DNA of 58,045 bases, counting the filler, from Jimgerdemannia flammicorona (Eukaryota): NCBI GenBank assembly GCA_003990765.1. It is 3 parts of 3 records of this genome, joined end to end, with 100 filler letters (N's around TTAATTAATTAA, not from the genome) between each part and the next. Parts side by side here need not be neighbours in the genome. Positions count along the whole stretch, not along the records: positions 1 to 19,284 come from RBNJ01001984.1; 2 more parts are not named here. One strand, 5' to 3'. Each line of letters starts with the position of its first letter. Position 1 is the stretch's first letter. The notes beneath the pieces were generated by a model that was not told where the DNA came from, did no database searches, and saw only the letters and a list, made by a program, of their open reading frames with translations. A program made the position numbers and the translations under genes. Shown here piece by piece: positions 5,478-38,766 of the stretch.

Positions 5478-6738
5478 CTACAAAAATATAGCATGATCAG
5501 AAGATGGTGGAACAGCAATCCATACTTTAGATTTCCAGTGTATCGCGCCCTTTTCATCGGTATAACAAATGCCAGGAAAGCAGACAACTTGCTTTTCTGA
5601 CGAAGTAAATCTAATCTCAAATGATTTCCCATTGTTCCTGTTGTATGTAGATGAGATGGCCGATTTTCGGTCACACAAGATGAGCTTACCAGAGACTTCG
5701 ATCATATCGTCGACTAGTGCGTCAAATTGTTTTTGCGCCCCATCATGTTGATTGATCTTCAGGAAACTTTCTCGAAGATCTAAAAATGGTTTCTGCTTGG
5801 ATGCTTTTTCATGTATTTGCTCTCTGAGATCTTGTTCGAGCATCTTGTAATTTGACTGCAGTACACCTATAACGAACTGTATGTTGGTTGGAGATACCTT
5901 TACGTCGAACATGGATTCACGGATGGTTTCGATTCGGCTCTTGATGATATTCTGAGTCGCACCGAACACACCCGTCATATTAATGGACAATAGTTCGCCG
6001 TTCTTGGCATTATCCTCGAAGAGAAACAGGCTAAGCCATCGTTGTCTATGGTCATAGAAGATATCATACATATATATATATTTAAAATGCTGGAAATTAA
6101 ATAAAAAAGCAATGGGAAAAAAAGCTAGTAACGTACTTACCGAAGACTATCAAATTTTTTCAACACAACGCTAAGATTCCAGGCTTCGAAATCAGTTCCA
6201 ATAACAGTTACACGCAATCTGTCTCTGTCTTCCTTTAAGATATCGTTATCCTTCCGCAACTGGCTGGCCTCACTCCGCAATCTGCCGGCCTCACTCCGCC
6301 AATGCTGAACCTCCTTCTGCAACTGCTTAATATCCTTCAGAGCTTCGGAATAGTCATGCTAGTTCATAATGAAGTTACTTACAATAAGTACTTATCCCAC
6401 AAATTAGAAATTTCTGTCAATGTCAATTTTTAGAAGAACTCGTACTTTCGAAATTTATGTTTTTGTTAACCTACCTCTAGTCTCTCCCTACGTTCAGTTT
6501 CATCCCCATATCCTATGGCGACATTTTTCAGAAATTTTACAACCTCGTCCATTTTATCACGTGTTGACGCGGCAGTAATAGTATTGTCTTGAACTTCAAC
6601 TACTAGCTTTTGAGGCTCGCTAATGTTGCAAAGAATATTAAGATATCTGTAAGTAATGGAGTGACGATAAGCAACACAATGAATGAACTCCACTTACGCG
6701 ACTTGCGGAGAGCTTCTTTGATTAGATGAATGCTGCAT
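5478..6738 (-). CDS. Coiled-coil Hsp70-partner protein, copy 1 (323 aa; C-terminus Mieap/GIL1/GrpE-head-like)
   Basis: Exons 6738-6698, 6619-6475, 6358-6141 and 6045-5478 (972 nt, in frame, GT-AG introns with phases conserved in all three copies). Heptad segment HDYSEALKDIKQLQKEV...LKEDRDRLR; C-terminus VVCFPGI...WKSKVW. The gene model is well supported; the family assignment is inference. Confidence 0.85.
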
Positions 6739-7301: not shown

Positions 7302-9502
7302 ATGCCTCGCAAGACTAAAGCCAAGAACACCACCACAGTGAAAAACACCACTACAGTCAAGAGCACCACTGCAGTCAACGCCACCACTGGTGTTTTCCGC
7401 AATATACTCAAGCCGAAAACTTATGGCTTTATCTGTGCCATAGATTTTGGTACAAGTGGTACGGGGTTCTGTTATGCAGTCTCTAATAATGGCACAATAG
7501 ATGACAAACGAGACATTATCCCGAACCCTGACTGGCATGTATTGTTAATTTTGAAGTTGCGTTTAAGTTATCCGCTTTCAGATTCGCTAACTAATATTTC
7601 TTTCTTGTTAGGCCGGGTAACCAAGAGCGTGGCAAAACGAATACCTCCATCATCCTTGATAAGACAACCAATGCCTGTATCAAATTTGGCACGGAAGCCA
7701 AATATGCCGCCCGCGACTACGCTTTCAACGAAAGCGACAGATTCTTTGAGCTGTTCAAGATGCAGTTATATGAGCATATTCCAGGCACCCCTTTTATCGT
7801 TAAGGACGCGGCAAGCGATGGAATCGATGCTATGATTGTTTTCAGAGAATCATTACGCTTTATAAAAAAAGGTATTGCTTTATATATATATATAAACGAA
7901 AATCTACGACGTGTATGTAAACTGTCTGCTAATTTTATCGAAATTAGTATTTTTTGAACACCTCAGAAGGAAAAACGTTTCCTGCTCTGAGATGGACGTC
8001 TTCTGGGTGTTGACCATTCCTGCAATTTGGGACGACGCCGCCAAGTTACTAATGCGTAAAGCTGCCGTGGCTGCTGAACTGGAGAAAGAAGACGGTCAAC
8101 TGGTACTCGCATTGGAGCCGGAAGCTGCATCTCTCTGGTGCCTCGCAAGTGGAGGAATCTCTTTGAAAAAAAAAGATGTCTATATGGTCGTCGATTGCGG
8201 TGGCGGTACTGTGGATATCACGATCCATGAAGTAGAGCGAGCGGACGAGCGATGCCCACGGGTGAAAGAAGGTATGTATAGTGGTGTCTGTTTTGTATTC
8301 ATTATGTGATTTTTTTTGGCATGTCTAAATTTGAGGTGAATCTTTTAATTCACCAGTTGCGCCTGCCAGTGGTGGAGCCTGGGGATCAACCAGCATTGAT
8401 CGTTGTGTGTTCAAATTGTTTGAAGACGTTTTTGGACGCAACCGATACAATCAAATGATGAAAGATTCCCTTGGTCATATACAACTTCAGGATGACGTTG
8501 AGAGAGCCAAATGCTCGTTTAACGGCGAAATCAATCCTGTCATCCAACTTCCTGATTCACTCTTGAATTCGACGAAGAATGATTTGGACACACCAAACCA
8601 AGCTGTCAGCAATTACAACCGAATAAATCAGGCAAGGCTTCAGTTGAAAGGTAAGCTATTTCATAGTATGCATATGTATTGACCATTTACTTTTTTTCTT
8701 CTTCTATTTATGTTCTGACATTGTATATGCATTCTACAGGATCAAACCTTCTAATTCCAGCGGCGATATTCTCGGAAATCTTCAGTTCTGCGATACGCTC
8801 GATCTTAAATCACGTGAATGACCTCTTGGTGAAATATGTCAACGTCAAATACGTCGTGATGGTGGGAAACTTTACCAACTGCATTCCATTACAAAAGCAA
8901 ATGGAGACTCTTTTGGACACATTCAAAATCAAGTTAATTATCCCAGATCAACCGGGCGATGCAATTATGAAAGGTGCTGTAATCTATGGGTTAGATTCCT
9001 CTTCTGTTACCTCCCGACGTGCCAGGAAAACCTATGGTGTGAGTGTGTTTGAAAGTTTTAACGATATGAAGCACCCCATAGAGCGGCTTGTGATCAGAGA
9101 TGGAAAGAGGTCTTGCGCAGGTGTGTTTGACCCATTTGTAAAAAAGAATCAGATAATTCCTTCGGGCCATATTGTGGAGCGTATATACCAGAAGGGGGAT
9201 AATCAACAAACAGAGATGGTAATACGGATTTTAGTCTCCGACGAAGACGAATTTCCACAATTTTCCGATCACTACTCTGTAAAGGTTATCGGAATACATT
9301 CAATCAACATTCCAATGAAAGGAACCGGAAGGTAAGATTTTATTAATTTTTTTATCATTTATTTCGTTTGAGTGACCTGACTTTAATACAATCTCGTTCG
9401 TCTAGAATTACTACGGGAATGCTATTTGGCAACACAGAACTTCGTTGCAAAAGTGTAAATGAGCTGGGCGAGGAAGTGGAAACCGCTTTGGTTTTGACAT
9501 GA
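7302..9502 (+). CDS. Atypical Hsp70 family protein (HSPA12-like), copy 1, 599 aa
   Basis: Exons 7302-7534, 7612-7871, 7948-8271, 8357-8650, 8740-9331 and 9406-9502 (1800 nt, in frame). Motifs AIDFGTSGTG, FKMQL, WVLTIPAIW, LALEPEAAS, VVDCGGGTVD, SGGAWGSTSID, SRRARKTYG and FGNTEL. No EEVD tail or helical lid. Confidence 0.93.
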
Positions 9503-11622: not shown

Positions 11623-12770
11623 CTATTTTGCAAGACGAGGTCGAGTGGCAACCCATACTTTGGATTTCCAGTCAGCCCTACCATTTACATCGATTGAACG
11701 AATGCCAGGAAAGCAGATAACTTGTTTATCTGCCGAAGTGATCACAATCGTATACGCTGTCGTATCGTGCCGGTCAAAATCATGTGAAATAGTCAATTTT
11801 TGGTCACACAAGAAAAGCATACCGGAGATTTTGATCATAGTGTCGAATAGTGCGTCAAATTGATCTTGATTAGATATCTCCAGGAAACTGATTTTAAGAT
11901 CATCGTGAGCTTTCTCCTTGCGTGCTCTTTTACGTATTCGCAATCTGAGGTCCGATTCAACCGTCTTGTAATTTGACTGGAGTACACCTGTGATGAACTG
12001 TATGTTTGTTGGAGATTCCTCATAGTCGAACATGTGCTCACAGACCTCTTTGATTTGATCCTTGAGGAGCTTTTGAGTTTCTCTGAACACAGACTCCATA
12101 CTAGCCGTCAATAGTGAACCGTTCTTAGCACTATCACCGAAGAGATACAGGCTAAGCCATTGTTGTCTATGGTCATAGAAGATATGATGAATTTTTTTAA
12201 AAATAATAACTGGAAATTAAGTCAAAAAGAAACGGAAAAAATAGCCAGTAATTATACTTACCGAAGACTTTCAAATATTTTCAATACAGCACCAATACTC
12301 CAGGCTTCATAATCGGAACCAATAACAGTAGCACGTAATTTGTTCATTTCCTCCTTCAAGAGAGCATTTTTCCTCTTCAAATCTTCTATTTCTTCCTGAG
12401 CTTCTGAATATTGATGCTAGTTCATAATATAGTTACGATAAGTACTTATTCAGAACAACCCGTGCTTTCGAAATCTTTTTTTTATTTTATTTTTTTTGGT
12501 TAACCTACCTCTAATAGCTGCCTCCGTTCAGTTTCAACCCCATATCTATTGAAGATATCTATCAGATGATTCACAAAACCATCCCTTTCACCGCTTATCG
12601 ACGCGGCAGTGATAGCATCGTCTTGAACTTGCTCAGACACTGGCTTTTGAGACTCGCTAATGTAATAATAAAAGATATCCATAAGTAAAGGAGTGACAAT
12701 AAGCCGCATGATGAGTTGATTCAACTTACCCGACTTGCGAATAACTTCTTTGATCAGTTGAAGGCTGCAT
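11623..12770 (-). CDS. Coiled-coil Hsp70-partner protein, copy 2 (295 aa)
   Basis: Exons 12770-12730, 12656-12509, 12416-12262 and 12166-11623 (888 nt, in frame). Same intron phases as copy 1; SPTNIQF.TGVLQSNY and VICFPGI...WKSKVW conserved. Confidence 0.85.
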
Positions 12771-13325: not shown

Positions 13326-13848
13326 ATGCCTCCTCACGAAACACACGAAGTCAAGAACACCACCTCTGGTGTTTTCCGTAATATACTCAAGCGAAAAACG
13401 TATAACTTCATCTGTGCCATAGATTTTGGCACAAGCGGTACAGGATTCTGTTATGCAGCCCCCAACGAAGGTGCAATAGATGCCAAGCGAGACATTATCC
13501 CCAACCCTGACTGGTACGTATTGTTATTTTTGAAACTGCATTTATGTTATTCAGATTTGATAACTAATATATCGGCCTTGTTAGGCCGGGTAACCAAGGG
13601 CGTGGCAAAACGAATACTTCCATTATCCTTAATAAGACAACCAATACCTATATCAAATTTGGCACGGAGGCCAAATATGCCGCCCGCGATTCTGCTTTCA
13701 ACGATAAAGACAGATTCTTTGAATTGTTCAAGATGCAGTTATATGAGCATATGCCAGACACGCCGTTTATCGTCAAGGACACAGCGAGCAAAGAAATAGA
13801 TGCTATAATCGTTTTCAAAGAGTCGCTACGCTTCATAAAAACAGGTAT

Positions 13849-13885
<37 letters not shown>

Positions 13886-15491
13886 TAATGGAAATCTACA
13901 CTGCGTTGATAATCTGTTGATTTGACTTGAAATTAGTATTTTTTGAACACCTCAGAAAGAGAAATGTTCCCTGCTCTGAGATGGATGTCTTCTGGGTGGT
14001 GACGATTCCTGCAATTTGGGACGACGCTGCCAAGTTGCTAATGCGTGAAGCTGCTGTTGCCGCTGAACTGGAAAAAGAAGAAGGTCAACTTATGTTCGCA
14101 TTGGAGCCAGAAGCTGCATCTCTCTGGTGCCTCGCAAGTGGAGGAATCTCTTTGAAAGAAAAAGATGTCTACATGGTCGTCGATTGCGGTGGCGGTACGG
14201 TGGATATCGCGATTCACGAAGTAGAACGAGCTGACGAGCGACACCCACGGGTGAAAGAGAGTACGTGTGACATTGTTCATTTTGTATAAATTACATGATA
14301 TTATGTCTGTCTAATTCTGAGATAAATCTTTTAATCCAACAGTTGCGCCTGCCAGTGGTGGAGCCTGGGGATCAACCAGCATTGATCGTTGCGTGTTCAA
14401 ATTGTTTGAAGAAGTTTTTGGTCGCAACCGATACGATAAAATGATGAAAGATCCCCTTGGTCATACGCAACTTCAAGATAACGTCGAGAGAGCCAAATGC
14501 TCGTTCAATGGCGAAATAAATCCTGTCATCCAGCTTCCTGATTCACTCTTGAATTCGACGAAGGATGATTCGGACACACCAAACCAAGCTATCAACAATT
14601 ACAACCGAATAAATCAGACGCGGCTTCAGTTAAAAGGTTAGGCTATTTCATAGCGTGCATTAACTGTTTTTTCTTCTCCTTTTTTCTTTTTTTTTAAGTT
14701 CTGACATTCTGTATGTATTTCACAGGCTCAACTCTTCTAATTCCAGCGGCGATATTCTCGGAATTCATTAGTTCTGCAATACGCTCGACCCTAAATCACG
14801 TGAATGACCTCTTGGTGAAATATAGCAACATCAAATACGTCGTGATGGTGGGAAACTTTGCCAACTGCGTCCCATTACAAAAGCAAATGGAGACTCTTTT
14901 GGACACATTCAAAATCAAGTTAATTATCCCAGACCAACCGGGCGATGCAATTATGAAAGGTGCTGTACTTTATGGGTTGGATTCCTCTTCTGTTACCTCC
15001 CGTCGTGCCAAAAAAACCTATGGTGTGAGAAAGATTACAGCTTTTATCGATGGGGAGCACCCCGTAGAGCGGCTTGTGATCAGGAGTGGACTGAGATTTT
15101 GCTCAGCTGTGTTTGATCCATTTGTACAAAAGAATGAGACAATTTGTTCAGACCACATCGTGGAGCGTAAATATAAGAGGGCGGAAAAGGAACAAAAAGA
15201 GATAATAATACAAATTCTAGCCTCCGACGAAGACGAATTTCCACAATTTGCCGACCACTACTCCGTAGAGGTTATCGGAAAACATACCGTCAATATTCCA
15301 ATGAATGGAACTGGAAGGTAAGATTTTATTTTCGGGGGGTTTTTTTTTTCGTTCGAGAAACCTGATCCTATTATAATCTCGTTCGATTGTCTAGTATTAC
15401 TACGGGAATGTTATTTGGTGACACAGAACTTCGTTGCAAAAGTGTAAATGATCTGGGCGAGGAAGTGGAAACCACTTTAGTGTGGACATGA
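13326..15491 (+). CDS. Atypical Hsp70 family protein (HSPA12-like), copy 2, 584 aa
   Basis: Exons 13326-13513, 13585-13844, 13937-14260, 14343-14636, 14726-15317 and 15395-15491 (1755 nt, in frame). Exons 2-6 are identical in length to copy 1 and carry the same motifs. Confidence 0.93.
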
Positions 15492-15517: not shown

Positions 15518-15552
<35 letters not shown>

Positions 15553-15849
15553 TGCGCTCTCTGGCTTGAATCGTTGATCTGCATGTAAACAAACCCAAAT
15601 ATGAATATCGTTATATCGTATATTCCAATGCCACAACAAAACTGCAGAAGTACTCCGCCACGGAGTACCAAATCCGGGAAACGAGGTCACCATCCCATTC
15701 CACTTGTCCATCTAGATACCTAAGAAAAATGCTCTCTGATCCATCTGATACAACGAACCCCTATAACAAATAATCCCATTGACTTCAATATGCCAACACT
15801 AATCCCTTCTTGACAATAAAATCCATCACATCCGCCCTCCATACCATAT

Positions 15850-17081: not shown

Positions 17082-18263
17082 CTATGAATATGTAGCCCGA
17101 TCGGAGTGTGGTGGAATGGCAATCCATACTTTGGATTTCCAGTCAACCACACCATTTTCATCGGTTGAAGAAATGCCAGGAAAGCAGACAGTTAGCTTTT
17201 CTGACGAATTAATCACAATCTCGAACGTTTCCTTATCGTTTGGGTTGTATGCACGTGAGAAAACTAACTTTCGGTCACACAAGAAAAGCATACCAGAGAT
17301 TTTGATCATATCGCTGAATAGTCCGTCAAATTGTTTTTGCGCTACTTCACGTTGATTAGATTTCATTAGGAAACTAGCTGAAAATTTTAAGAACACTGGG
17401 TCTTGGTGTGCTATTTCACGCATTCGCTTTCTGAGGGTCTCTTCAAGTGCCGTGTAATTTGACTGCAGTACACCAGTGACGAACTGGAAGTTTGTTGGGG
17501 ATTCCTTGAAGTCAAATAAGTATTCACGGATTGTTTTCATGTGACTATCGAGAATATTCCGAGTCACGATGAACACAGATTCCATATTCCTGGTCAACAG
17601 TTCGCCGTCCTTGGCATCATCATCGAAGAGAAACAGGCTAAGCCATTGTTGTCTATGGTCATAGAAGATTTCATATAATTTTTTTTTAAAAAATCGCTGG
17701 AAATTAAATCAAAAAGCAAAATAGCTAGTAACGTACTTACCGAAGATTATCAAATTTTTTCAACACAAAACCAAGGTCCCAGGCTTGAAAATCACTACCA
17801 ATAATAGTGGCGCGTAATTTGTTCATTTCCGCCTTCAAGAGAGAATTATTATTCTTCAGCTGTTGGATTTCTTTCTGAGCTTCTGAATATTCATGCTAGC
17901 ATAATAAAGTTACTTACGATAAGTACTTATCTCATAAATTGGAACTTTTGTCAAAATCAATTTTCAGAATAACTCGTGCTTTCGATTTGTTAACCTACCT
18001 GTAGTAACCGAGTCCGTTCAGTTTCTCCCCCATATCTAGTGAAGACATTTTTCACATAACTTACAACACCATCCATTTCATTACGTATTGACGCGGTAGT
18101 AATAGTATTTTCTTGTTCAACCTCTGGCTGTGGAGACTCGCTAATGTTGCAATGAATATATAAGATATCCGTATGTAATAGCGTGACAATAAGCAGCACA
18201 ATGAATGTATTTCACTTACACAACTTTCGGGCGACTTCTTCGATCAGAAAAACTCTTCATCAT
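17082..18263 (-). CDS. Coiled-coil Hsp70-partner protein, copy 3 (302-303 aa)
   Basis: Exons 18263/18260-18220, 18140-17999, 17895-17741 and 17652-17082, in frame, with the same structure as copies 1 and 2. Confidence 0.85.
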
Positions 18264-18744
18264 TTCAATATGCTTCAGTTCTCCGCGACATACTTATATA
18301 TATATTTATATGCCGAACTTCAGCCTAAATGCAACTGTCCTCGAGACACAATGACATTTCAGTTATTGCTTATTGTGCCAGGTCTTGTGAATTAATTATT
18401 AGAAATATTCTACAAGGAAGAACTTTGTACCACACGGCGTTGGTTTTTTCACACTCCGAGGCAAATTGTGTACCCAAATGTTTCGGAAAAGCTCGGATAA
18501 AATGCTATGCATTATGCCAACCTTAACTTGTTAGCTCTGGCAATAATCTCTCGCTTGGTAATAATGACAGTTGTTTGTGTTCCATGATCAAATAATCCCA
18601 AGAGTCGGGTAAATTCCTCTGCATACGTGGTCCGTGGTCATGTACGAGCGTACATGTACTCATACCCAGTTAGGACTACCTCATCTCGGGCATAAGCTTA
18701 AAATCGCATTGTAGTATTAAGTCTCATTCATACTTTGTGTGAAA
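18264..18744. promoter_or_regulatory. Bidirectional promoter region, unit 3
   Basis: 481 bp between divergent ATGs; homologous to units 1 and 2 with internal deletions. Confidence 0.6.
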
Positions 18745-19264
18745 ATGCCTCCTTACGAAAAACGTGAAAACACCACCACTGGTGTTTTCCGCAATATACT
18801 CGAGCGTAAAACTTATAGCTTTATCTGTGCCATAGATTTTGGCACGAGTGGTACGGGGTTCTGTTATGCAGTCCTTAAGAATGGCAAAATAGATGCCAAG
18901 CGAGATATTATCACGAACCCTGACTGGTATGTCTTTCTATTTTTGAAAACTTCGTTTAAGTTATTCGCTTTCAGATTTGCCAACTAATATTTCCGTCTTG
19001 TTAGGCCGGGTAACCAAGGGCGAGGCAAAACAAGTACCTCCATCATCCTCAATAAGACAACCAATGCCTATATCAAATTTGGCACGGAAGCCAAATATGC
19101 CGCCCGCGACTACGCTTTCAACCAAAGAGACAGATTCTTTGAGTTGTTCAAGATGCAGTTATATGAGCATATGACAGATACGCCGTTTATCGTCAAGGAC
19201 ACGGCAAACAATGGAATCGATGCTTTGATCGTTTTCAGAGAGTCATTACGCTTCATAAAAAAAG
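18745..19264 (+). CDS. Atypical Hsp70 (HSPA12-like), copy 3, 5' part only (cut by assembly gap)
   Basis: Exons 18745-18926 and 19005-19264 (AIDFGTSGTG, FKMQL). Intron 2 runs into poly-T and Ns. Confidence 0.88.
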
Positions 19265-19284
19265 GTATGGTTTTTTTTTTTTTT

Positions 19285-19384
19285 NNNNNNNNNNNNNNNN
19301 NNNNNNNNNNNNNNNNNNNNNNNNNNNNTTAATTAATTAANNNNNNNNNNNNNNNNNNNNNNNNNNNNNNNNNNNNNNNNNNNN
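19285..19384. other. Assembly spacer
   Basis: N44-TTAATTAATTAA-N44, an artificial six-frame-stop linker. Confidence 0.98.
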
Positions 19385-20320
19385 CCCTACCCCTTCTTGA
19401 TGAAAGACCACTCTGTCTAATACAATCTCCACCCTTCCCCCACTCTGTTCACAGATCCTTGTCACCAAACCATGATATTGCCCCCCTGAAGGACCCCAAC
19501 CTATCCACCATCCAGTCAATAGATCCCCCAACAACTCCTCCCACCTCGAAACCTTCTCCCACAGTCCCATCTGCCACCCCTCCTCAAACACAAAAAGCCA
19601 ATATCCTGCCAATCCCACTCAAATAGCTAACACCCACCTGACAGTGAGCCAACTATCACTCACCCCCCTCACTAGCCAAGTCTCAAGTCCTCCCAGCAGT
19701 CCCCCTATCCTGCCGGCCTGTGCACCACACCCAGTCTATTCTCTATTTCTATCCAAAAGTCCCCCAAAATCTCACACTCTCCCAGCCAATATTCCAGTAT
19801 CTGTACAACACCCCCAGCTTGCCCCACATTGTAACACTCCTCACAATCGAAACAGCCACCATCCACCAGATGCCCAGTGTGGAAATTCAACATGACATTC
19901 CTCTGCAGCAATCACCACTACACCACCCAGTACTTGGGAGGAAGCCACTGCCATACCTCAGCACTCCAAGACCAGATACCTGCCCAGTCCCACTCCTCAC
20001 CGATAACTACCACCTGCCAACTGCTTGGCCAAAGATCCTGGCCAAGACCCTGCTGACACTCCCCTCCATCCCCAATATCAAAAGCAGCAAGTGGAGTACC
20101 CCCCAGGAGTAGTCTATCCCATCATCATATACTAGGTCCCCACATCTCCTCCCCCTCATTGCCTTGCCAGCACAGACCAATTCAGTGTACACCATCAACC
20201 ACTCTCCACCAAAAGCTCTGAAACTGCAGCTGCCAATTTTCATTGAGTCCTACTAAAGAGAGTAGATCTCCTGAGAACCCTTGGGGGGAGGTTCTCATCT
20301 CTCACACCTTCTGTAGCAGA
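19385..20320 (-). mobile_element. Tx1/L1-group LINE, 3' fragment
   Basis: zf-RVT-like CEECYNVG...EYWLGEC; homologous to 37730-38666. Confidence 0.8.
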
Positions 20321-20694: not shown

Positions 20695-21066
20695 CCTCTG
20701 ACCAAAGCCCACCTAGAAGATGTAGAGTATGATCTTCACAGTCTAGAGGATGAATCTATCAAGCCTGGAAAAACTTTCATAATCAGAACTGGACTAGCCA
20801 TGTAGCCACCCCAGGGATCTTACATCCAACTGACCTCAAGGTCCAGACTTGCTAGAAAAGGAATAACTATAGAAGGAGGAACCATTGACCCAGGATATAC
20901 AGGCGAAATCAAGGTCATTCTATACAACAGCAGTGCAGAATGGCACTGAATCATTAGAGGACAGAAGATTGCCCAAGCCATCTTCATGAAGGTCAAGACC
21001 CCACAGTTACAAGAAGTCTCTGAACTAACTGAAGCAATAAGACAAGCCAAGGGATTTGGAAGTTCA
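20695..21066 (+). pseudogene. dUTPase domain in Gypsy-A pol
   Basis: YDLHS, SRSRLARKG, GGTIDPGYTGEIKVIL, GQKIAQAI and RQAKGFGSS correspond to the five trimeric dUTPase motifs; two in-frame stops. Confidence 0.9.
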
Positions 21067-23948
21067 AATAAGAAGGAAGTACATCTCCTTCAAGGCAACC
21101 ACCTTAAGAAGAATGTTCCCCAGCAACTGTATTGGCAACCAGTCAGGCTGCACAAGAATCTCATCCTGGAGCCTGGAGAACAAACAACCCTCGAAATCTT
21201 TGTACCACCCGATCCCAGAAACCTTTTCTTTGAACCCCAGAAAGATATCCCCCACCTAGATATAGAAGGACACACATTCCCTGACAAGATGAATCCAGTA
21301 CACTCCCAAGCAACCAACCAAAGTTGGGAGACCACCATCTTGCCAAAAGGAACCATCATAGGGCATCTAGTGCCTTTTCTCAAATGAACTCATAGGGAAG
21401 TTTATGAACTAAACCTATCAGGAAACAGCAAAAGGTCCCAGAAGAAAGGAAAGGCCCCTCTGCGACCCAAGAGACAGTGAAGCCTTCCACTAACATTGGA
21501 GAAGAATTGATACCTGAACAACAGCAATAACTAGTAGAACTCCTCAACAAATATCAAGATATCTTCACTACTAATTATGGCAACCTGCCATACAATCCAT
21601 CATATCACTACAGAATAAATACAGAAAATACAACACCCATCTGGCAGAAATCCAATAGAATACCCCACCACTTGAAAACATTTGAAAAGGAGCACATTCA
21701 GGAACTCTTAGACAATAGAGTCATCCGACCCTCTACCAGCCTCTGGGCCAGCCCTATACTTATTGTACCAAAGAAAGGAGGATGGAGACTCTGTGTGGAT
21801 TACAGGAAACTCAACTCAGTCACTGAAAAGGATGCCTATCCTTTGCCCAGAATTGATGATCTTTTGGATCAGTTATGGAATGCCAGATACTTCAGCAGTA
21901 TGGACCTTTTCACAGGATTCCATGAGATCTCCATGGACTCCAAAGACATTCAAAAGACAGCCTTCCTTGCCTTAGGAAAATTGTTTGAATACCTCTGAAT
22001 GTCTTTTGGACTTTACAATGCACCCCCCACCTTCCAGAGGATAATGAATTCAGTCTATGCCCCTTTGATCTACCACTGCCTGATTGTATATATGGATGAT
22101 TCCAACATCTATACAGCCAATTTCAAAGAACACCTATACTACCTAGAGGAATTCTTCAAGCTCGCCTGTGAGAACCACTTGAGATTAAATGCAAAGAAAT
22201 GCTACTTTGGAAAACAGAAACTTAAATTTCTAGGATTCATAGTTTCAAAAGAAGGAACCTATGCAGACCCAAAGAAAACCAAGAAGTTCAATAATTGGCC
22301 AGTACCCAAAACTCTGAAGGAAACACAATCATTTCTGATGCTAGTATCCTACTACAGAAGATTTATCAAGGACTCTGCCCAAATTGCTGCTCCAATCCAA
22401 ATCCTTCTCAAGAAAGAAGTACCATTCAAATGGACAGAATCACAAGAGAAAGCCTTCTAAGAACTCAAAAACTGCATGACTACAGTACTGAACCTTGTGC
22501 ACCCTAATCTATAGAAGCCATTCATCTTGTACATAGATGCTTCTAAAGATGGCCTTGGAGCAGTTCTAGTCTAAGAAGGACCTGACCAATAGCCTATATA
22601 ATAGCTTATGTAAGTAGAGCTACCAATCAGCAGCAGATGAACTATGGTAGCACCAAACTAGAATGTCTTACAGTCATATGGGTGGTCACTCTGTTCAAGC
22701 ATTACCTTATTGGAAAAAGATTCACTCTGATCACAGACCATGCAGCCCCCCAATGATTATTCAACTACAAGGAACTCACTGGAATCCTAGTCTGCTGGAT
22801 CCTTATCCTTCAGAATTTCAAAATCACTATCATCCTCAAAGCAGGGAAAGGCCACAATAATATTGATGTACTTTCCCACCAGCTTCAATAAATCAGAAGA
22901 AGGGTGTCCTGAGGAACTACACCCTAAAGGAAGCCCCTCAGACCATCAAGGCACAAGAAGATCTCATCCAAAAAGAACATCAGAAAGCCCACCAAGGACA
23001 GACAAGTACAGAAGACAAGATTTGAAAACAATATCAGTGTTGGCCCCACCTCAGAACACAAGTCTGAGACATTATTCAGAAGTGTGATATCTACCAAAAG
23101 TACCAAGAAAAGAAGAACTATCAAGCCCCTCTGCAGCCAATTCCCCCACCCACTCACATCTTTCAAAGATGGGGAGTAGATGTAATTTGACCCCTACTAG
23201 TTATACCAAGAAGAAACAAATACATCCTTATACTTGTGGAATATCTGACCAAGTGGCCTGAGGCTTTCCCAATGGAAATTACAGATGCCATAACCATTGT
23301 AGGCCTTCTCCATGAACTCACACTCAGATATAGACCCCTGGAAGAACTCATCTCTGACCGAGGCACAGAATTTGTTAACAACATAATCATTAGTTATATC
23401 TAAATTCACAAGATCCTCCTCAAACAGACTATATTATACCACTCTCAGACCAATGGCATGACAGAGAGAATGAACCAGACCATCAAGAAAGGACTTGCCT
23501 AAGTCAATCCTACCAATTGGGACCTCTGCTTACCTGAAATCCTGTGGGAAATCTGAAACACCCCTGCAGCTTCAATCAAACAAAAGCCATTCGAAATAAT
23601 GTTTGCCAAGAAAACCAGAACTGCTGACCATGAGAATATCAGAGATCTCCTCAAGAAGGCAGAACAGTTATATAATCAAGCCTGAGGTCAGATTATTAAA
23701 GCCCAAGAAAGACAAAAGAAGTATTATGACCAGAAGTAGAAGGATCAGAAGATCAAGATTGGAGATCAAGTACTAGTTTGGAGAAGTATGATTATAATGA
23801 ATTTTGCCACCAAAATGGAACCTAAATGGGAAGGATCTTATTTTGTACACAATATCAGAGGAATCAGTATCTATTTAAGAAGCATGGATGGAGAAACCTT
23901 GAGAACTCCAGTCCACATCAATCACCTCAAGATATACCTACATGAACC

Positions 23949-35900: not shown

Positions 35901-38666
35901 AGGGTATATTGAGAAGAAGCTGGTAGGAAGGCTGGAAGGTAGAGAAGAAAGCAAGTGAGGTGTGCTTCTAACAGGCTAATTAGATTGTAAATGAAATGGG
36001 CCGATTTGCTTTCTTCTGAAGAGGTGGAGGATTGGAGGTTAGTGAGAGTGAAATTGGAGGTAGTGGAGTTGCAACAGATATTGAGAGAAGAGGAGGAGAT
36101 TCATTTGAAAGAAATGACTGCCAGACTATGGTGGCAGGGGCTTGAGGAGGGTGAGAGGCCTACTAGGTACTTGTTTAGGCTTCTCTAAGCTAGGAGGGTG
36201 TAAAATCAATGAGATGGAGTCTTTGATGCTGAGTGGGATATGGTGTGTGGCATGCAACAGATCTTGGGGGTACTGAAGGAGTGATGGAGGGGTCTGTGGA
36301 GTGAGAAGAAAGGAGATGCAGATGAAGAGGTGATTGGTGATATACTGGAGGAGTGGGATCTACCATGAGTAAAGAGGGTTGGTGACTTGATTGAACTAGT
36401 CTAAAAGGAGGAGATCAAGAGTGTCTTTGCAGCAACCAAGCTTGGGACAGCACCAGGAGAAGATGGGTTACCTTGGGACTTCTGGAAGAAGATGGCAAAG
36501 GTCTCTAGAGTATTGGGTGAGATGGCTGCTCTCTGTGACCATGTTCTTCTGAATGGTGAGTGGGTTGGAGAGCAGAACTTGGAGCTGGTGGCCTTATTGT
36601 ACAAAGACAAGAGAAGAAGGGAGGACTTGAAGAACTGGAGACTGATCATGCTTCTGGATATGGATAGGAAGATGGTGACTAAGGTAATTGTTACAAGGCT
36701 ATAGAAAGTTGTCCAACAGGTACTGGGTGAGGAGCAGCAGGGCTTTGTAGGAGGCAGGCTTATAAGAGATAGAACTGCATGGGTGCATGACATCATTGAA
36801 GGGGTCCAGACTTGTGGACTGGATAATAGACTGGTCTTTTTAGACCAGGAGAAGGCCTATGACCATATATGGTGGGTTTGGCTGGGTAAGATATTGGATA
36901 GAATTGGTGTTCCTCTATAATTTCAGACTTCTATATTGAATCTATTAGAGGGCAGTAGGGTGGTGCTGATGTGTAATGGTCACTGGGGTCTGGTATTTTC
37001 TTTGAGAAGAGGAGTTCCTCAGGGGGACCCACTGTTCTCTATTCTCTATGCTCTTTCATTAGAACCTTTGATGGATAGGATTTACTGGAGAGTGGTAGGG
37101 CTCTCTATATATGGTATAGTATGGAAGGTGGGGGCCTTTGCTAATGACATAGTAGTTGGACTTGATTCTGTGGCAGATATTGAGGCACTTAAGAAGACAG
37201 TAGAATGGTATAAGGTACACTCTGGAGCAAAGCTCAACTGGTATAAGTGTGAGATAATAGTGCTAGGAAATGGGCTAGTGAGTGGGGACATCATTGGAAC
37301 AATTGTCCCTACAGATGAGATGGTGCAGTATCTGGGCATCTTCCTTTCTGTATATGGATCTGTCTTGCCATGAGTGTGGTGGAAGAGGAGGGTGACCATT
37401 TGGGAAGAGGTCCTTAGAGGTTGGAGAGGCCATTATATCTCTCTGACAGAGTGGGTGTCAATTCTGAATATCTACTAGTTCCCCAAGCCATGGTATGTGA
37501 TGTGGCCTATTATCTAGACTTCTCAGCTTAGGTGGTGAAGAGGCTGACAAAGATGGCTAGAGATTGGATTTGGGTAGAGAGGAGGTCCCAGATCAGTTGG
37601 GATACTCTTATAACACCAGTGGTTAGGGGAGGACTAGGTCTTGTAGATTTTCCTAAGAGATTGTATTGCCTGCAAGCCTGGTGGTTGAAGAGAGCTATTG
37701 AACTGCAGAGAGGGGATTGGGTACCACTGTTGCAGAAAGTGTGGGAGATGAGATCCTCCTCTTGAGAGTCCTTAGGAGATTTGCTCTCTCTGGTGAGACT
37801 GAATGGAAGTTGACAGCTGCAGTTTAAGGGCTTCTGGTGGGGGGTGGTAGATGGAGTATACCAAATAGGCCTGTACTAGTGAGGTAATGAGAGAGAGGTA
37901 CTGTGGGGTCCAGATATGTGGAAATGGGACAGACTGCTTCTGGGGGGTGCTCTGCTTGCTGAGTTTGATATTGGGGATAGAGTGGAGTATCAGCAGGGTC
38001 TTGGCCAGGATCTTTGGCCAAGTGGCTGGTAGGCAGTAAAAATTGGCAAGGAGTGGGACTGGGCAGGTGTCTGGTTGTAGAGTGCTGAGGTATGGAGGTG
38101 GCTTCCTCCCAAGTTCTGAGTGGTATGGTAGAGAATGCTGCAAAGGAACATTATGTTGAATTTCTGTGCAGAGAATCTGATGAAAGGTGGCTGATTAGAT
38201 TGTGAGGAGTGTTATAATGTTGGATAAGTTGGAGGATTTGTACAGATGCTGGAACATTGACTGGAAGAGTGTGAGGTTCTGAGGGACTTCTGGATAGAAG
38301 TAGGGAATAGGCTGGGTATAGAGAAGAGACCAGATGGCAAGAGAGGCTGCTGGGAGGATTTGAAATCTCAGCTAGTGGGTGGTGTGGACAATAGTTGACT
38401 CACTGTAGAGTGGATTTTAGTGGTATAGGTGGGACTGGCTAGACATTGGCTCTTTGTTTTTGAGAAGGGGTGACAGATGAGTTTACAGAAGAAGTTGTTA
38501 AGATGGGAGGGATTGATGGGGGATCTGCTGACTGAGTGATGGATGGGTTGGGGTCCCCAGGGTAGGCAATGTTGCAGTCTGGTAGAAAGGATCTGTGAAC
38601 AGAGTAGTGGGCAGGTAGAGATGGTGTTAGACAAAGTGGTCTTTTATTGAGTGAGGGTGGGGGGGG
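32917..38666 (+). mobile_element. Near full-length degenerate Tx1/L1-group LINE (ORF1 about 33067-34998; ORF2 about 35029-38650)
   Basis: GGDFN, SDH, LKNWRLIMLLDMD, GVPQGDPL, AFAND and zf-RVT; many TAG/TGA/TAA stops; 3' end runs into the gap. Confidence 0.92.
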
Positions 38667-38766
38667 NNNNNNNNNNNNNNNNNNNNNNNNNNNNNNNNNN
38701 NNNNNNNNNNTTAATTAATTAANNNNNNNNNNNNNNNNNNNNNNNNNNNNNNNNNNNNNNNNNNNN
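38667..38766. other. Assembly spacer
   Basis: N44-TTAATTAATTAA-N44. Confidence 0.98.

What the first reader, a model, noticed from the sequence alone, without database searches (positions are those of the whole stretch)
17082..17652. Partner protein looks like a GrpE/Mieap/GIL1-type coiled-coil plus beta-head and evolves fast
Architecture seen: short variable N-terminus, coiled coil, helical region, then M(I)xxSGxLxLCD, a loop, V(I)CFPGI, and G..xWKSKVW at the extreme C-terminus. This recalls the C-terminal signatures of Mieap/SPATA18 (VWPAL...KG), plant GIL1/IRKI (VxPGF...KxxVY) and the GrpE head (xGY...RxAxVxV), the Hsp70 nucleotide-exchange factor. The last exon of copy 1 vs copy 3 is only about 58% identical by hand count, versus about 90% for the Hsp70 ATPase domain. 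Inference: a private GrpE-like exchange factor or client for an HSPA12-type Hsp70, which could link two orphan eukaryotic families.
Basis: inference. Interest (0 to 1): 0.72.

Follow-up and report, generated by a model that had tools for sequence, protein, structure and literature searches.

The report
Fast-evolving partner gene of fungal Hsp70
A soil fungus carries three side-by-side copies of a gene pair, an unusual Hsp70-type ATPase and a rapidly changing coiled-coil protein; the coiled-coil protein is probably the ATPase's private helper, but its suspected kinship to the known Hsp70 helper GrpE could not be shown directly.

Summary
17082-17652(-) is the last exon of an expressed, spliced four-exon gene (about 303 aa) in Jimgerdemannia flammicorona. 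The gene has three tandem paralogues. Each is head-to-head (481-563 bp between start codons) with an atypical Hsp70-family ATPase gene. The partners are 53-59% identical with dN/dS 0.61-0.83; the Hsp70s are 76-90% identical with dN/dS 0.20-0.40.

The fungal protein itself gave no significant match to GrpE, MIEAP or GIL1_IRKI_C, by Pfam, by profile-profile comparison (no better than shuffled controls) or by fold search of two medium-confidence models. A language-model feature search does place MIEAP and GIL1_IRKI_C clusters nearest, which is a lead only.

The indirect evidence is stronger. The fungal Hsp70 has full-length bacterial relatives. In 43 of 47 such loci one partner family is present, directly downstream in 42. 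One cyanobacterial member passes Pfam's MIEAP cut-off, and the family's C-terminal head matches GrpE (hhalign 95%, E 2e-8).

Best reading (0.5): a strongly diverged member of this MIEAP/GrpE-like partner family that acts as a dedicated cofactor of the adjacent Hsp70. Earlier notes of this scan reported the same module on other DNA.

The parts
17082..17652 (-). Partner copy 3, exon 4 (last). Encodes 189 aa plus the stop at 17082-17084: a six-helix region, then a small beta unit with the motifs ISGMLFLCD, VCFPGI and WKSKVW.
   Evidence: Translation; spliced contig joint 17652->17741 in runs X1 and X2; structure models.
17741..17895 (-). Partner copy 3, exon 3 (end of the coiled coil and the conserved IGSDFQAWDL...KKFDNLR stretch).
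   Evidence: Joints 17652->17741 and 17895->17999 in X1 and X2, the latter also in soil metatranscriptome run X4; ORF.
17999..18140 (-). Partner copy 3, exon 2. It is 22 codons longer than in the database model P0002.
   Evidence: A contig covers 17999-18140 and its loose end matches 18220-18230; paralogues P0003 and P0004 carry the homologous stretch.
18220..18263 (-). Partner copy 3, exon 1 (ATG at 18263-18261).
   Evidence: P0002 residues 1-15 map to 18263-18219; the loose end of the RNA contig; sequence read.
18264..18744 (.). Divergent intergenic region between the two start codons (481 bp), a presumed shared promoter.
   Evidence: Start codons at 18263 and 18745. Promoter function is inferred, not tested.
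18745..19284 (+). Hsp70 copy 3, 5' part (the protein P0012 of another assembly is 581 aa). Intron about 18926-19003. Cut by the N gap at 19285.
   Evidence: Exact match of the P0012 N-terminus at 18745; spliced joint 18925->19004; N gaps.
11623..12770 (-). Partner copy 2 (P0004, 295 aa).
13326..15491 (+). Hsp70 copy 2 (P0013, 566 aa), head-to-head with partner copy 2 (555 bp between start codons).
   Evidence: Pfam HSP70 E 9.6e-8.
5478..6738 (-). Partner copy 1 (P0003, 323 aa).
7302..9502 (+). Hsp70 copy 1, head-to-head with partner copy 1 (563 bp between start codons). The end coordinate is approximate.

Best explanation
The finding is the last exon of one of three expressed paralogous genes. 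Each encodes a protein of about 300 aa with a variable N-terminus, one helix of about 85 residues (a likely dimerising coiled coil), a six-helix region and a short five-stranded C-terminal unit. Each gene is transcribed divergently from an atypical Hsp70-family ATPase gene, and the 5.4-6.1 kb pair was triplicated in tandem.

The protein is most likely the strongly diverged fungal counterpart of a partner family that accompanies the same Hsp70 branch in bacteria. There the partner is MIEAP-like and its C-terminal head is homologous to the GrpE head. By inference, the fungal partner binds the nucleotide-binding domain of its own neighbouring Hsp70 through the helical region and beta head and controls its nucleotide cycle, GrpE-like exchange being the leading guess. 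The fast-changing surface tracks its cognate Hsp70 paralogue or a changing client.

Shown here: gene structure, expression, pairing, rate contrast, and the bacterial pairing with its MIEAP and GrpE links. Inferred: homology of the fungal protein to that family, binding, and exchange activity.
For: - Spliced transcripts exist for both genes.
- 3 of 3 partner copies are head-to-head with an Hsp70 copy, 481-563 bp between start codons, in a tandem repeat of 5.4-6.1 kb.
- For both genes copies 1 and 3 are the closest pair, which fits duplication as a unit.
- P0012 aligns over nearly its whole length with bacterial proteins: 47 loci with a hit spanning more than 380 residues, 24-31% identity, E down to 3e-64. 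DnaK and HscA models match only part of it, at E about 1e-10.
- One neighbour family occurs in 43 of these 47 loci. In 42 it is downstream on the same strand, median gap 97 nt. 32 of those 42 are recognised at E<=0.01 by an HMM built from ten of them.
- That family has the same layout: variable N-terminus, coiled coil, helical region, C-terminal ...YPGY...KAxVFT.
- L073 matches Pfam MIEAP at E 1.1e-6, 29.3 bits against a cut-off of 27, profile positions 47-195 of 195. 4 of 10 members match at E<=1.
- hhalign of the bacterial family against 9 GrpE sequences gives Prob 95.3%, E 2.3e-8, over 44 columns. GrpE 3a6m_A ranks second in a PDB profile search, E 0.019.
- Independently, language-model features of the fungal protein put MIEAP clusters nearest among named clusters (0.91 with 174 of 256 features for the whole protein; 0.89, 0.88, 0.88 for the C-terminal part) and GIL1_IRKI_C at rank 8.
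Against: - No sequence method links the fungal family to MIEAP, GIL1_IRKI_C, GrpE or the bacterial partners. Pfam gave no such hit at E<=10 for 9 family sequences.
- An exhaustive HMMER profile search of 1.84 billion representatives found only 9 hits. Eight are the family itself. The ninth is a repetitive coiled-coil protein.
- hmmsearch gave nothing in either direction.
- hhalign gave Prob 0.1-0.4% against the bacterial partners and 0.2% against GrpE. 42 of 150 and 10 of 150 block-shuffled controls reached the real score, and the reversed GrpE profile scored higher than the real one.
- The beta unit is modelled with low confidence (pLDDT about 50-68).
- The MIEAP link of the bacterial family rests on one protein just over the cut-off. 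In 151 cyanobacterial genomes only that same genome passed.
- Feature-search scores under 0.9 are leads only, and the best whole-protein hits were unnamed clusters.
- Neighbourhood within one tandem array is a single event, not independent conservation. No second fungal species could be examined.
Confidence: 0.5

Rival explanations
1. The pair is a lineage-specific conflict or stress module. The fast-evolving coiled-coil protein is the specificity subunit (sensor, adaptor or client) and the Hsp70-type ATPase is the motor. The partner need not act as an exchange factor, whether or not it descends from the MIEAP/GrpE-like family.
For: dN/dS is 0.61-0.83 in the partner against 0.20-0.40 in the ATPase. 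The pair is tandemly amplified. The family is narrow: 9 hits among 1.84 billion representatives. In the bacterial loci the Hsp70-partner pair often sits beside effector-like or regulator genes: patatin-like phospholipase (cluster in 14 of 47 loci), GDPD phosphodiesterase (12 of 47), Ser/Thr kinase with TPR (8 of 47) and AAA+ ATPases.
Against: PADLOC models gave no meaningful hit (best E 0.0036-0.014, short or coiled-coil stretches). With three paralogues, positive selection cannot be told from relaxed constraint. No effector gene lies beside the fungal pairs; the rest of the window is repeats and retroelement ORFs.
Confidence: 0.25
2. The partner is an unrelated orphan coiled-coil protein that merely shares a bidirectional promoter with the Hsp70 gene. 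The motif resemblance to GrpE, MIEAP and GIL1 is chance.
For: All direct sequence and fold tests on the fungal protein were negative or at chance level. The three pairs stem from one duplication history, so adjacency was observed once in effect.
Against: The same Hsp70 branch keeps a partner of the same layout in 43 of 47 bacterial loci. The feature search independently names MIEAP and GIL1_IRKI_C for the fungal protein, and the bacterial partner also hits MIEAP. Both genes of all three pairs have open frames, and transcripts were seen for pair 3.
Confidence: 0.2

Closest known systems
GrpE (Pfam PF01025), nucleotide-exchange factor of DnaK and mitochondrial Hsp70
   Same: Overall layout: a long N-terminal helix, then a helical part, then a small C-terminal beta unit. 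It is encoded beside an Hsp70-family ATPase. The bacterial partners of the related Hsp70 branch share the GrpE head (hhalign Prob 95.3%). The fungal motif order (FDxxD ... VCFPGI ... KxKVW) can be laid on FDPxxHEA ... GY ... RPAxVxV.
   Different: There is no significant sequence or profile similarity for the fungal protein. The helical region is about 140 residues with six helices, much larger than I recall for GrpE (recalled, not measured here). No GrpE chain was listed in five fold searches. Exchange activity is untested.
MIEAP domain (Pfam PF16026; Mieap/SPATA18 of animals)
   Same: It is the nearest named family by language-model features. A cyanobacterial partner of the related Hsp70 branch passes the Pfam cut-off over profile positions 47-195. 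Like the fungal protein, that partner has a coiled coil ahead of the domain.
   Different: The Pfam MIEAP model does not match any of the 9 fungal family sequences at E<=10. No eukaryotic MIEAP sequence was available here for a profile-profile or fold comparison. No link between Mieap and an Hsp70 was found in print (0 papers).
GIL1_IRKI_C (Pfam PF24994; plant GIL1/IRKI proteins)
   Same: Rank 8 among named clusters by features for the C-terminal part, score 0.85, 142 of 256 shared; the family is on 44% of that cluster's members.
   Different: No Pfam match. The score is below the level at which the tool counts a hit as more than a lead.
HSPA12A/B-type atypical Hsp70s
   Same: The neighbouring ATPase matches the Hsp70 model only in part (Pfam HSP70 E 4e-7 to 1e-7; DnaK and HscA models about 1e-10). 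It carries the motifs IDFGTSGTG and VVDCGGGTVD, and its C-terminal part is matched by no Hsp70/DnaK model.
   Different: No HSPA12 reference sequence was available, so membership of that subfamily was not tested here.

Membership tests
GrpE (PF01025) | Match to the Pfam GrpE model at or above its gathering score (25.8 bits) | tested here: not met
   No GrpE hit at E<=10 for P0001-P0008 or the two other last exons. A PDB profile search with A1 listed no GrpE chain.
GrpE (PF01025) | Profile-profile similarity to GrpE sequences | tested here: not met
   hhalign A10 vs 9 GrpE: Prob 0.18%, P 0.33. 10 of 150 shuffles and the reversed profile reach the score. As a positive control, the bacterial partner family against the same GrpE set gives Prob 95.3%.
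GrpE (PF01025) | GrpE fold (long helix, helical bundle, C-terminal beta domain) | tested here: inconclusive
GrpE (PF01025) | Accelerates nucleotide release from its Hsp70 | not testable with these tools
   This needs a biochemical assay.
MIEAP (PF16026) | Match to the Pfam MIEAP model at or above 27 bits | tested here: not met
   No MIEAP hit at E<=10 for any of the 9 fungal family sequences. The bacterial syntenic partner L073 scores 29.3 bits.
MIEAP (PF16026) | Remote similarity by other means (features, profile-profile, fold) | tested here: inconclusive
   Feature search: MIEAP clusters at 0.91 (174 shared; 14 of 30 hits) for the whole protein and 0.89, 0.88, 0.88 for residues 136-323. hhalign against the MIEAP-like bacterial partners gave Prob 0.4%. 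No eukaryotic MIEAP sequences or models were available.
GIL1_IRKI_C (PF24994) | Match to the Pfam model | tested here: not met
   No hit at E<=10. Only a feature-search lead at 0.85.
Hsp70-branch partner family seen in bacteria (unnamed; MIEAP/GrpE-like) | Encoded next to a member of the same Hsp70 branch | tested here: met
   3 of 3 fungal copies are head-to-head. The partner is present in 43 of 47 bacterial loci.
Hsp70-branch partner family seen in bacteria (unnamed; MIEAP/GrpE-like) | Detectable sequence homology to its members | tested here: not met
   hmmsearch in both directions found nothing in the C-terminal domain. hhalign gave P 0.14-0.17, and 42 of 150 shuffles reach the score.
Hsp70-branch partner family seen in bacteria (unnamed; MIEAP/GrpE-like) | Same domain order: variable N-terminus, coiled coil, helical region, short C-terminal beta unit ending aromatic-P-G-x ... 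K-x-x-V-aromatic | tested here: met
   Fungal. Bacterial. This is a resemblance of layout, with no statistical weight.

The most novel reading that the evidence does not exclude
Animal Mieap/SPATA18, plant GIL1/IRKI, this fungal family and the bacterial operon partners are all descendants of one GrpE-derived cofactor that has travelled with the HSPA12-type Hsp70 branch since bacteria. On this reading the two 'orphan' eukaryotic families (HSPA12 and MIEAP-domain proteins) form an ancient two-protein machine. The rapid change and tandem amplification seen here would reflect matching of cofactor and ATPase paralogues, or an arms race over clients.
Probability: 0.3. Interest if true: 0.85.

Novelty: new variant of a known kind. 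Interest (0 to 1): 0.6.

Why it matters
A 2026 review states that the function of HspA12 is presently unknown (PMC13580251, passage read). Mieap is studied as a p53-inducible mitochondrial quality-control protein (recalled). Full-text searches found 0 papers holding both Mieap and HSPA12, 0 holding both GIL1 and Mieap, and 1 unrelated paper holding both Mieap and GrpE (listing only).

A dedicated GrpE-like or MIEAP-like cofactor for this Hsp70 branch would give both families a testable biochemical function: binding and nucleotide exchange. The fungal triplet, with its matched fast-evolving partners, would be a natural experiment on cofactor and ATPase specificity. For this window the membership is still indirect. 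Its value is as one more, very divergent, eukaryotic instance of the pairing.

Tried and rejected
- **Pfam, NCBIfam and PADLOC on the fungal partner:** only weak coiled-coil-type hits.
- **PDB sequence profile (A1):** 9 weak hits, none GrpE.
- **Word-index searches with P0001 and A2:** only the family itself.
- **P0011:** this 2786-aa repetitive coiled-coil protein from the exhaustive search (E 3e-6, 6 stretches) was set aside as a probable composition match and not followed.
- **Fold searches:** Foldseek PDB twice, VIA wide twice, VIA second look once. No GrpE chain was among the rows listed. The long helix filled the first list.
- **Complex prediction (P0013 full length with P0004 residues 91-295):** no verdict (score 0.00, controls not run, alignments not used). 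This counts neither for nor against binding.
- **Collection scans:** The search for related loci found nothing with the Hsp70 alignment in genome contigs or with A1 in metagenome contigs.
- **Metagenome pattern scan for QF[IV]xG[VT]LQSNY:** one locus, L131, which is a chance match with stops around the motif and no tblastn support.
- **Whole genome:** none is held for the window, so genome-wide copy number and pairing could not be counted.
- **hhalign of the fungal family vs the bacterial partner and vs GrpE:** the best local alignments are collinear, but their scores are at shuffle level. I do not count the collinearity as evidence.
- **MIEAP model over 151 cyanobacterial genomes:** only the genome already in hand passed the cut-off, so the Pfam model barely reaches the bacterial family.
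- **Runs X3 and X4:** each holds a small share of the stretch. Only the X4 joint is used, and no habitat is claimed.
- **Possible in-frame alternative splice 17129-17293:** seen in one contig with only 29 letters on one side, which is too weak to claim.

Full report
**What is there**

The window is eukaryotic. Proteins identical to its translations are named as hypothetical proteins of Jimgerdemannia flammicorona. It is followed by 13 further residues rather than ending the protein.

Contigs of two runs of the same coded organism are spliced exactly at 17652/17741 and 17895/17999, and a loose end joins 18140 to 18220. The gene therefore has four exons: 18263-18220, 18140-17999, 17895-17741 and 17652-17082. 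It encodes about 303 aa. The database model P0002 (281 aa) lacks 22 residues of exon 2, which the paralogues P0003 and P0004 possess. A soil metatranscriptome contig shows the same 17895/17999 joint.

**Copies and neighbours**

tblastn finds two more last exons, at 5484-6044(-) with 58.5% identity and at 11638-12165(-) with 53.6%. Each partner gene faces a plus-strand gene for an atypical Hsp70-family ATPase. The distances between start codons are 563, 555 and 481 bp. The unit repeats every 5.4-6.1 kb.

The ATPase proteins P0012 and P0013 match Pfam HSP70 only in part (E 4e-7 and 1e-7). They match DnaK and HscA models at about 1e-10. The third ATPase copy is cut in the window by N gaps from 19285.

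**Rates**

Partner last exons are 53-59% identical, with dN 0.27-0.33 and dN/dS 0.61-0.83. The ATPase copies 1 and 2 are 82% identical overall (76-90% per exon), with dN 0.09 and dN/dS 0.33. The first two exons of all three copies give dN/dS 0.20-0.40. The partner therefore evolves about three times faster at the protein level. For both genes copies 1 and 3 are the closest pair.

**How wide the family is**

An exhaustive HMMER profile search of 1.84 billion cluster representatives gave 9 hits at E<=0.001:
- two of the window's own paralogues;
- six fragments at 34-51% identity. One is named, from a second J. flammicorona isolate, and five are unnamed. They appear to be three further genes, judged by shared contig lengths;
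- a 2786-aa repetitive coiled-coil protein, which I set aside.

Word-index searches added nothing.

**Direct tests of the GrpE, MIEAP and GIL1 idea on the fungal protein**

- Pfam gives no hit to PF01025, PF16026 or PF24994 at E<=10 for any of the 9 family sequences.
- A PDB sequence-profile search lists no GrpE chain.
- AlphaFold2 with the shallow family alignment (pLDDT 73.5) predicts a helix at 30-115, six helices at 124-259 and five short strands at 264-306. The strands have pLDDT of only about 50-68. The last exon modelled alone has pLDDT 67.8.
- Foldseek against the PDB finds nothing at E<=0.001 for either model.

The fold question stays open, because the beta part is poorly modelled.

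A language-model feature search is the one positive direct signal. For the whole protein, 14 of 30 hits are MIEAP clusters (0.91, 174 of 256 features), behind unnamed ciliate and Mucoromycota clusters. For residues 136-323, among named clusters, ranks 1-3 are MIEAP (0.89, 0.88, 0.88). GIL1_IRKI_C appears at rank 8 (0.85), and 9 of the ten best share a family or clan. By the tool's own calibration these are leads.

**Indirect test through the Hsp70**

A scan of bacterial and archaeal genomes for the motif DCGGGTVD returned 120 loci. 74 of them hold a tblastn match to P0012. In 47 the match spans more than 380 of its 581 residues, at 24-31% identity and E down to 3e-64. These matches usually cover residues about 20-578, so they include the non-DnaK C-terminal part. 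They come from Streptomyces and other actinomycetes, several cyanobacteria and some proteobacteria (titles).

I clustered all ORFs of 80 aa or more within 3.5 kb of the Hsp70. One family is present in 43 of 47 loci, and in 42 it lies downstream on the same strand, with a median gap of 97 nt and median length 302 aa. A few of these ORFs (L057, L062, L079) look doubtful. 32 of the 42 are recognised at E<=0.01 by an HMM built from ten of them.

The family has a variable N-terminus, a coiled coil, a helical region and a C-terminal ...DPPG.L...G..F....HE...GC...G.I..T.YPGYLV..RV..KA.VFT. Its ties to known families are:
- **MIEAP.** Pfam MIEAP matches the Nostoc member at E 1.1e-6, 29.3 bits against a cut-off of 27, over profile positions 47-195. 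4 of 10 cyanobacteria-type members match at E<=1. In the full-length scan at E<=0.01, 2 of 42 matched.
- **GrpE by Pfam.** GrpE matches 2 of 10 below its cut-off (best E 0.0021).
- **GrpE by profile.** Thermus GrpE 3a6m_A ranks second in a PDB profile search (E 0.019). hhalign against 9 GrpE sequences fetched from five of the same genomes gives Prob 95.3%, E 2.3e-8, over the 44-column head.
- **Caveat.** The MIEAP model hardly reaches this family. In 151 cyanobacterial genomes only the Nostoc genome passed the cut-off.

**Does the fungal partner belong to that family?**

By sequence this cannot be shown. hmmsearch finds nothing in the C-terminal domain in either direction. hhalign gives Prob 0.1-0.4% against the bacterial partners and 0.2% against GrpE.

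The best alignments are collinear: LCD on DPP, FDxxD on FDxxHE, CFPGI on YPGY, KSKVW on KAxVF. However, 42 of 150 and 10 of 150 block-shuffled templates reach the same scores, and the reversed GrpE profile scores higher. I give the collinearity no weight.

What remains is convergence of two independent lines on MIEAP: features of the fungal protein, and Pfam on the bacterial syntenic partner. Added to that are the same gene neighbourhood and the same domain order.

**Reading**

- About 0.65: the fungal protein is a very diverged member of this MIEAP/GrpE-like partner family.
- About 0.5: the full best explanation, membership plus action as a dedicated cofactor on its neighbouring ATPase.
- About 0.3-0.35: it specifically accelerates nucleotide exchange.

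The rivals are a conflict-type specificity subunit or client (0.25) and an unrelated neighbour (0.2). A complex prediction gave no verdict, and I list it only among the things tried.

**Known or new**

Full-text searches found 0 papers with Mieap and HSPA12, 0 with GIL1 and Mieap, and 0 with TOTE, 'conflict systems' and Hsp70. They found 1 unrelated paper with Mieap and GrpE (listing only), and 2 with 'mitochondria-eating protein', HSP70 and expansion (listings only). Among the 31 papers with HSPA12 and GrpE, I read one passage of a 2026 review, which says the function of HspA12 is presently unknown.

Earlier notes of this scan report the same kind of pair on other DNA, in fungi, Naegleria and bacteria, with mixed verdicts on GrpE likeness. 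I re-derived the bacterial pairing and the GrpE link independently here. I did not check their fungal cases.

Noticed in passing
window 17999-18140 (exon 2 of partner copy 3): The public protein model for this gene (P0002, 281 aa) skips 22 codons (VSYVKNVFTRYGGETERTRLLQ). Spliced RNA-derived contigs and both paralogues include them.
   Followed up: yes
window 17129-17293: One contig of run X1 skips 165 nt in frame with GT..AG ends on the minus strand. This would delete almost the whole C-terminal beta unit (GMLFLCD...WKSKV). Only 29 letters lie on one side, and another contig runs through unspliced.
   Followed up: partly
window 19285-19384 and 38667-38766; 19285-20319 vs 37727-38762: Two identical double N gaps (44 N, 12 bases, 44 N) sit at the ends of an inverted repeat pair (I5 and I7, 77-78% complementary). 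They enclose about 18 kb with extreme GC skew that flips sign near 32 kb (-0.52 to +0.49). This may be a large inverted structure or an assembly artefact. It truncates Hsp70 copy 3.
   Followed up: partly
window 20950-22460 (+): ORFs with retroelement pol motifs (for example IVYMDDSNIY) lie just beyond the truncated Hsp70 copy 3. Further repeats and inverted repeats fill 39-58 kb.
   Followed up: no
L075:1573-2901(-), L036:1816-4149(-), L069:1090-2496(-), L076:7584-9533(+), L077:6826-8829(-), L054:1561-4224(+): Several gene types recur beside the bacterial Hsp70-partner pair: a patatin-like phospholipase (cluster in 14 of 47 loci), a GDPD phosphodiesterase (12 of 47), a Ser/Thr kinase with TPR repeats (8 of 47) and ClpB-like AAA+ ATPases (5-7 of 47). 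This hints at a larger system.
   Followed up: partly
L126, L127, L128, L129 (genomes G004, G005, G002, G001): These genomes hold a second or third GrpE-family gene over the Pfam cut-off (35-80 bits) besides the canonical one. I did not check whether these sit near other Hsp70-like genes.
   Followed up: no
window 5481-6044 vs protein P0003: The window's copy 1 last exon differs from the database protein at two residues (SSTYN against SSAYN, KGAIH against KGVIH), while copy 3 is identical to P0002. The window and the named assembly are therefore not letter-identical throughout.
   Followed up: no
window 15529-15553: A (TA)n microsatellite lies in the spacer between Hsp70 copy 2 and partner copy 3.
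   Followed up: no
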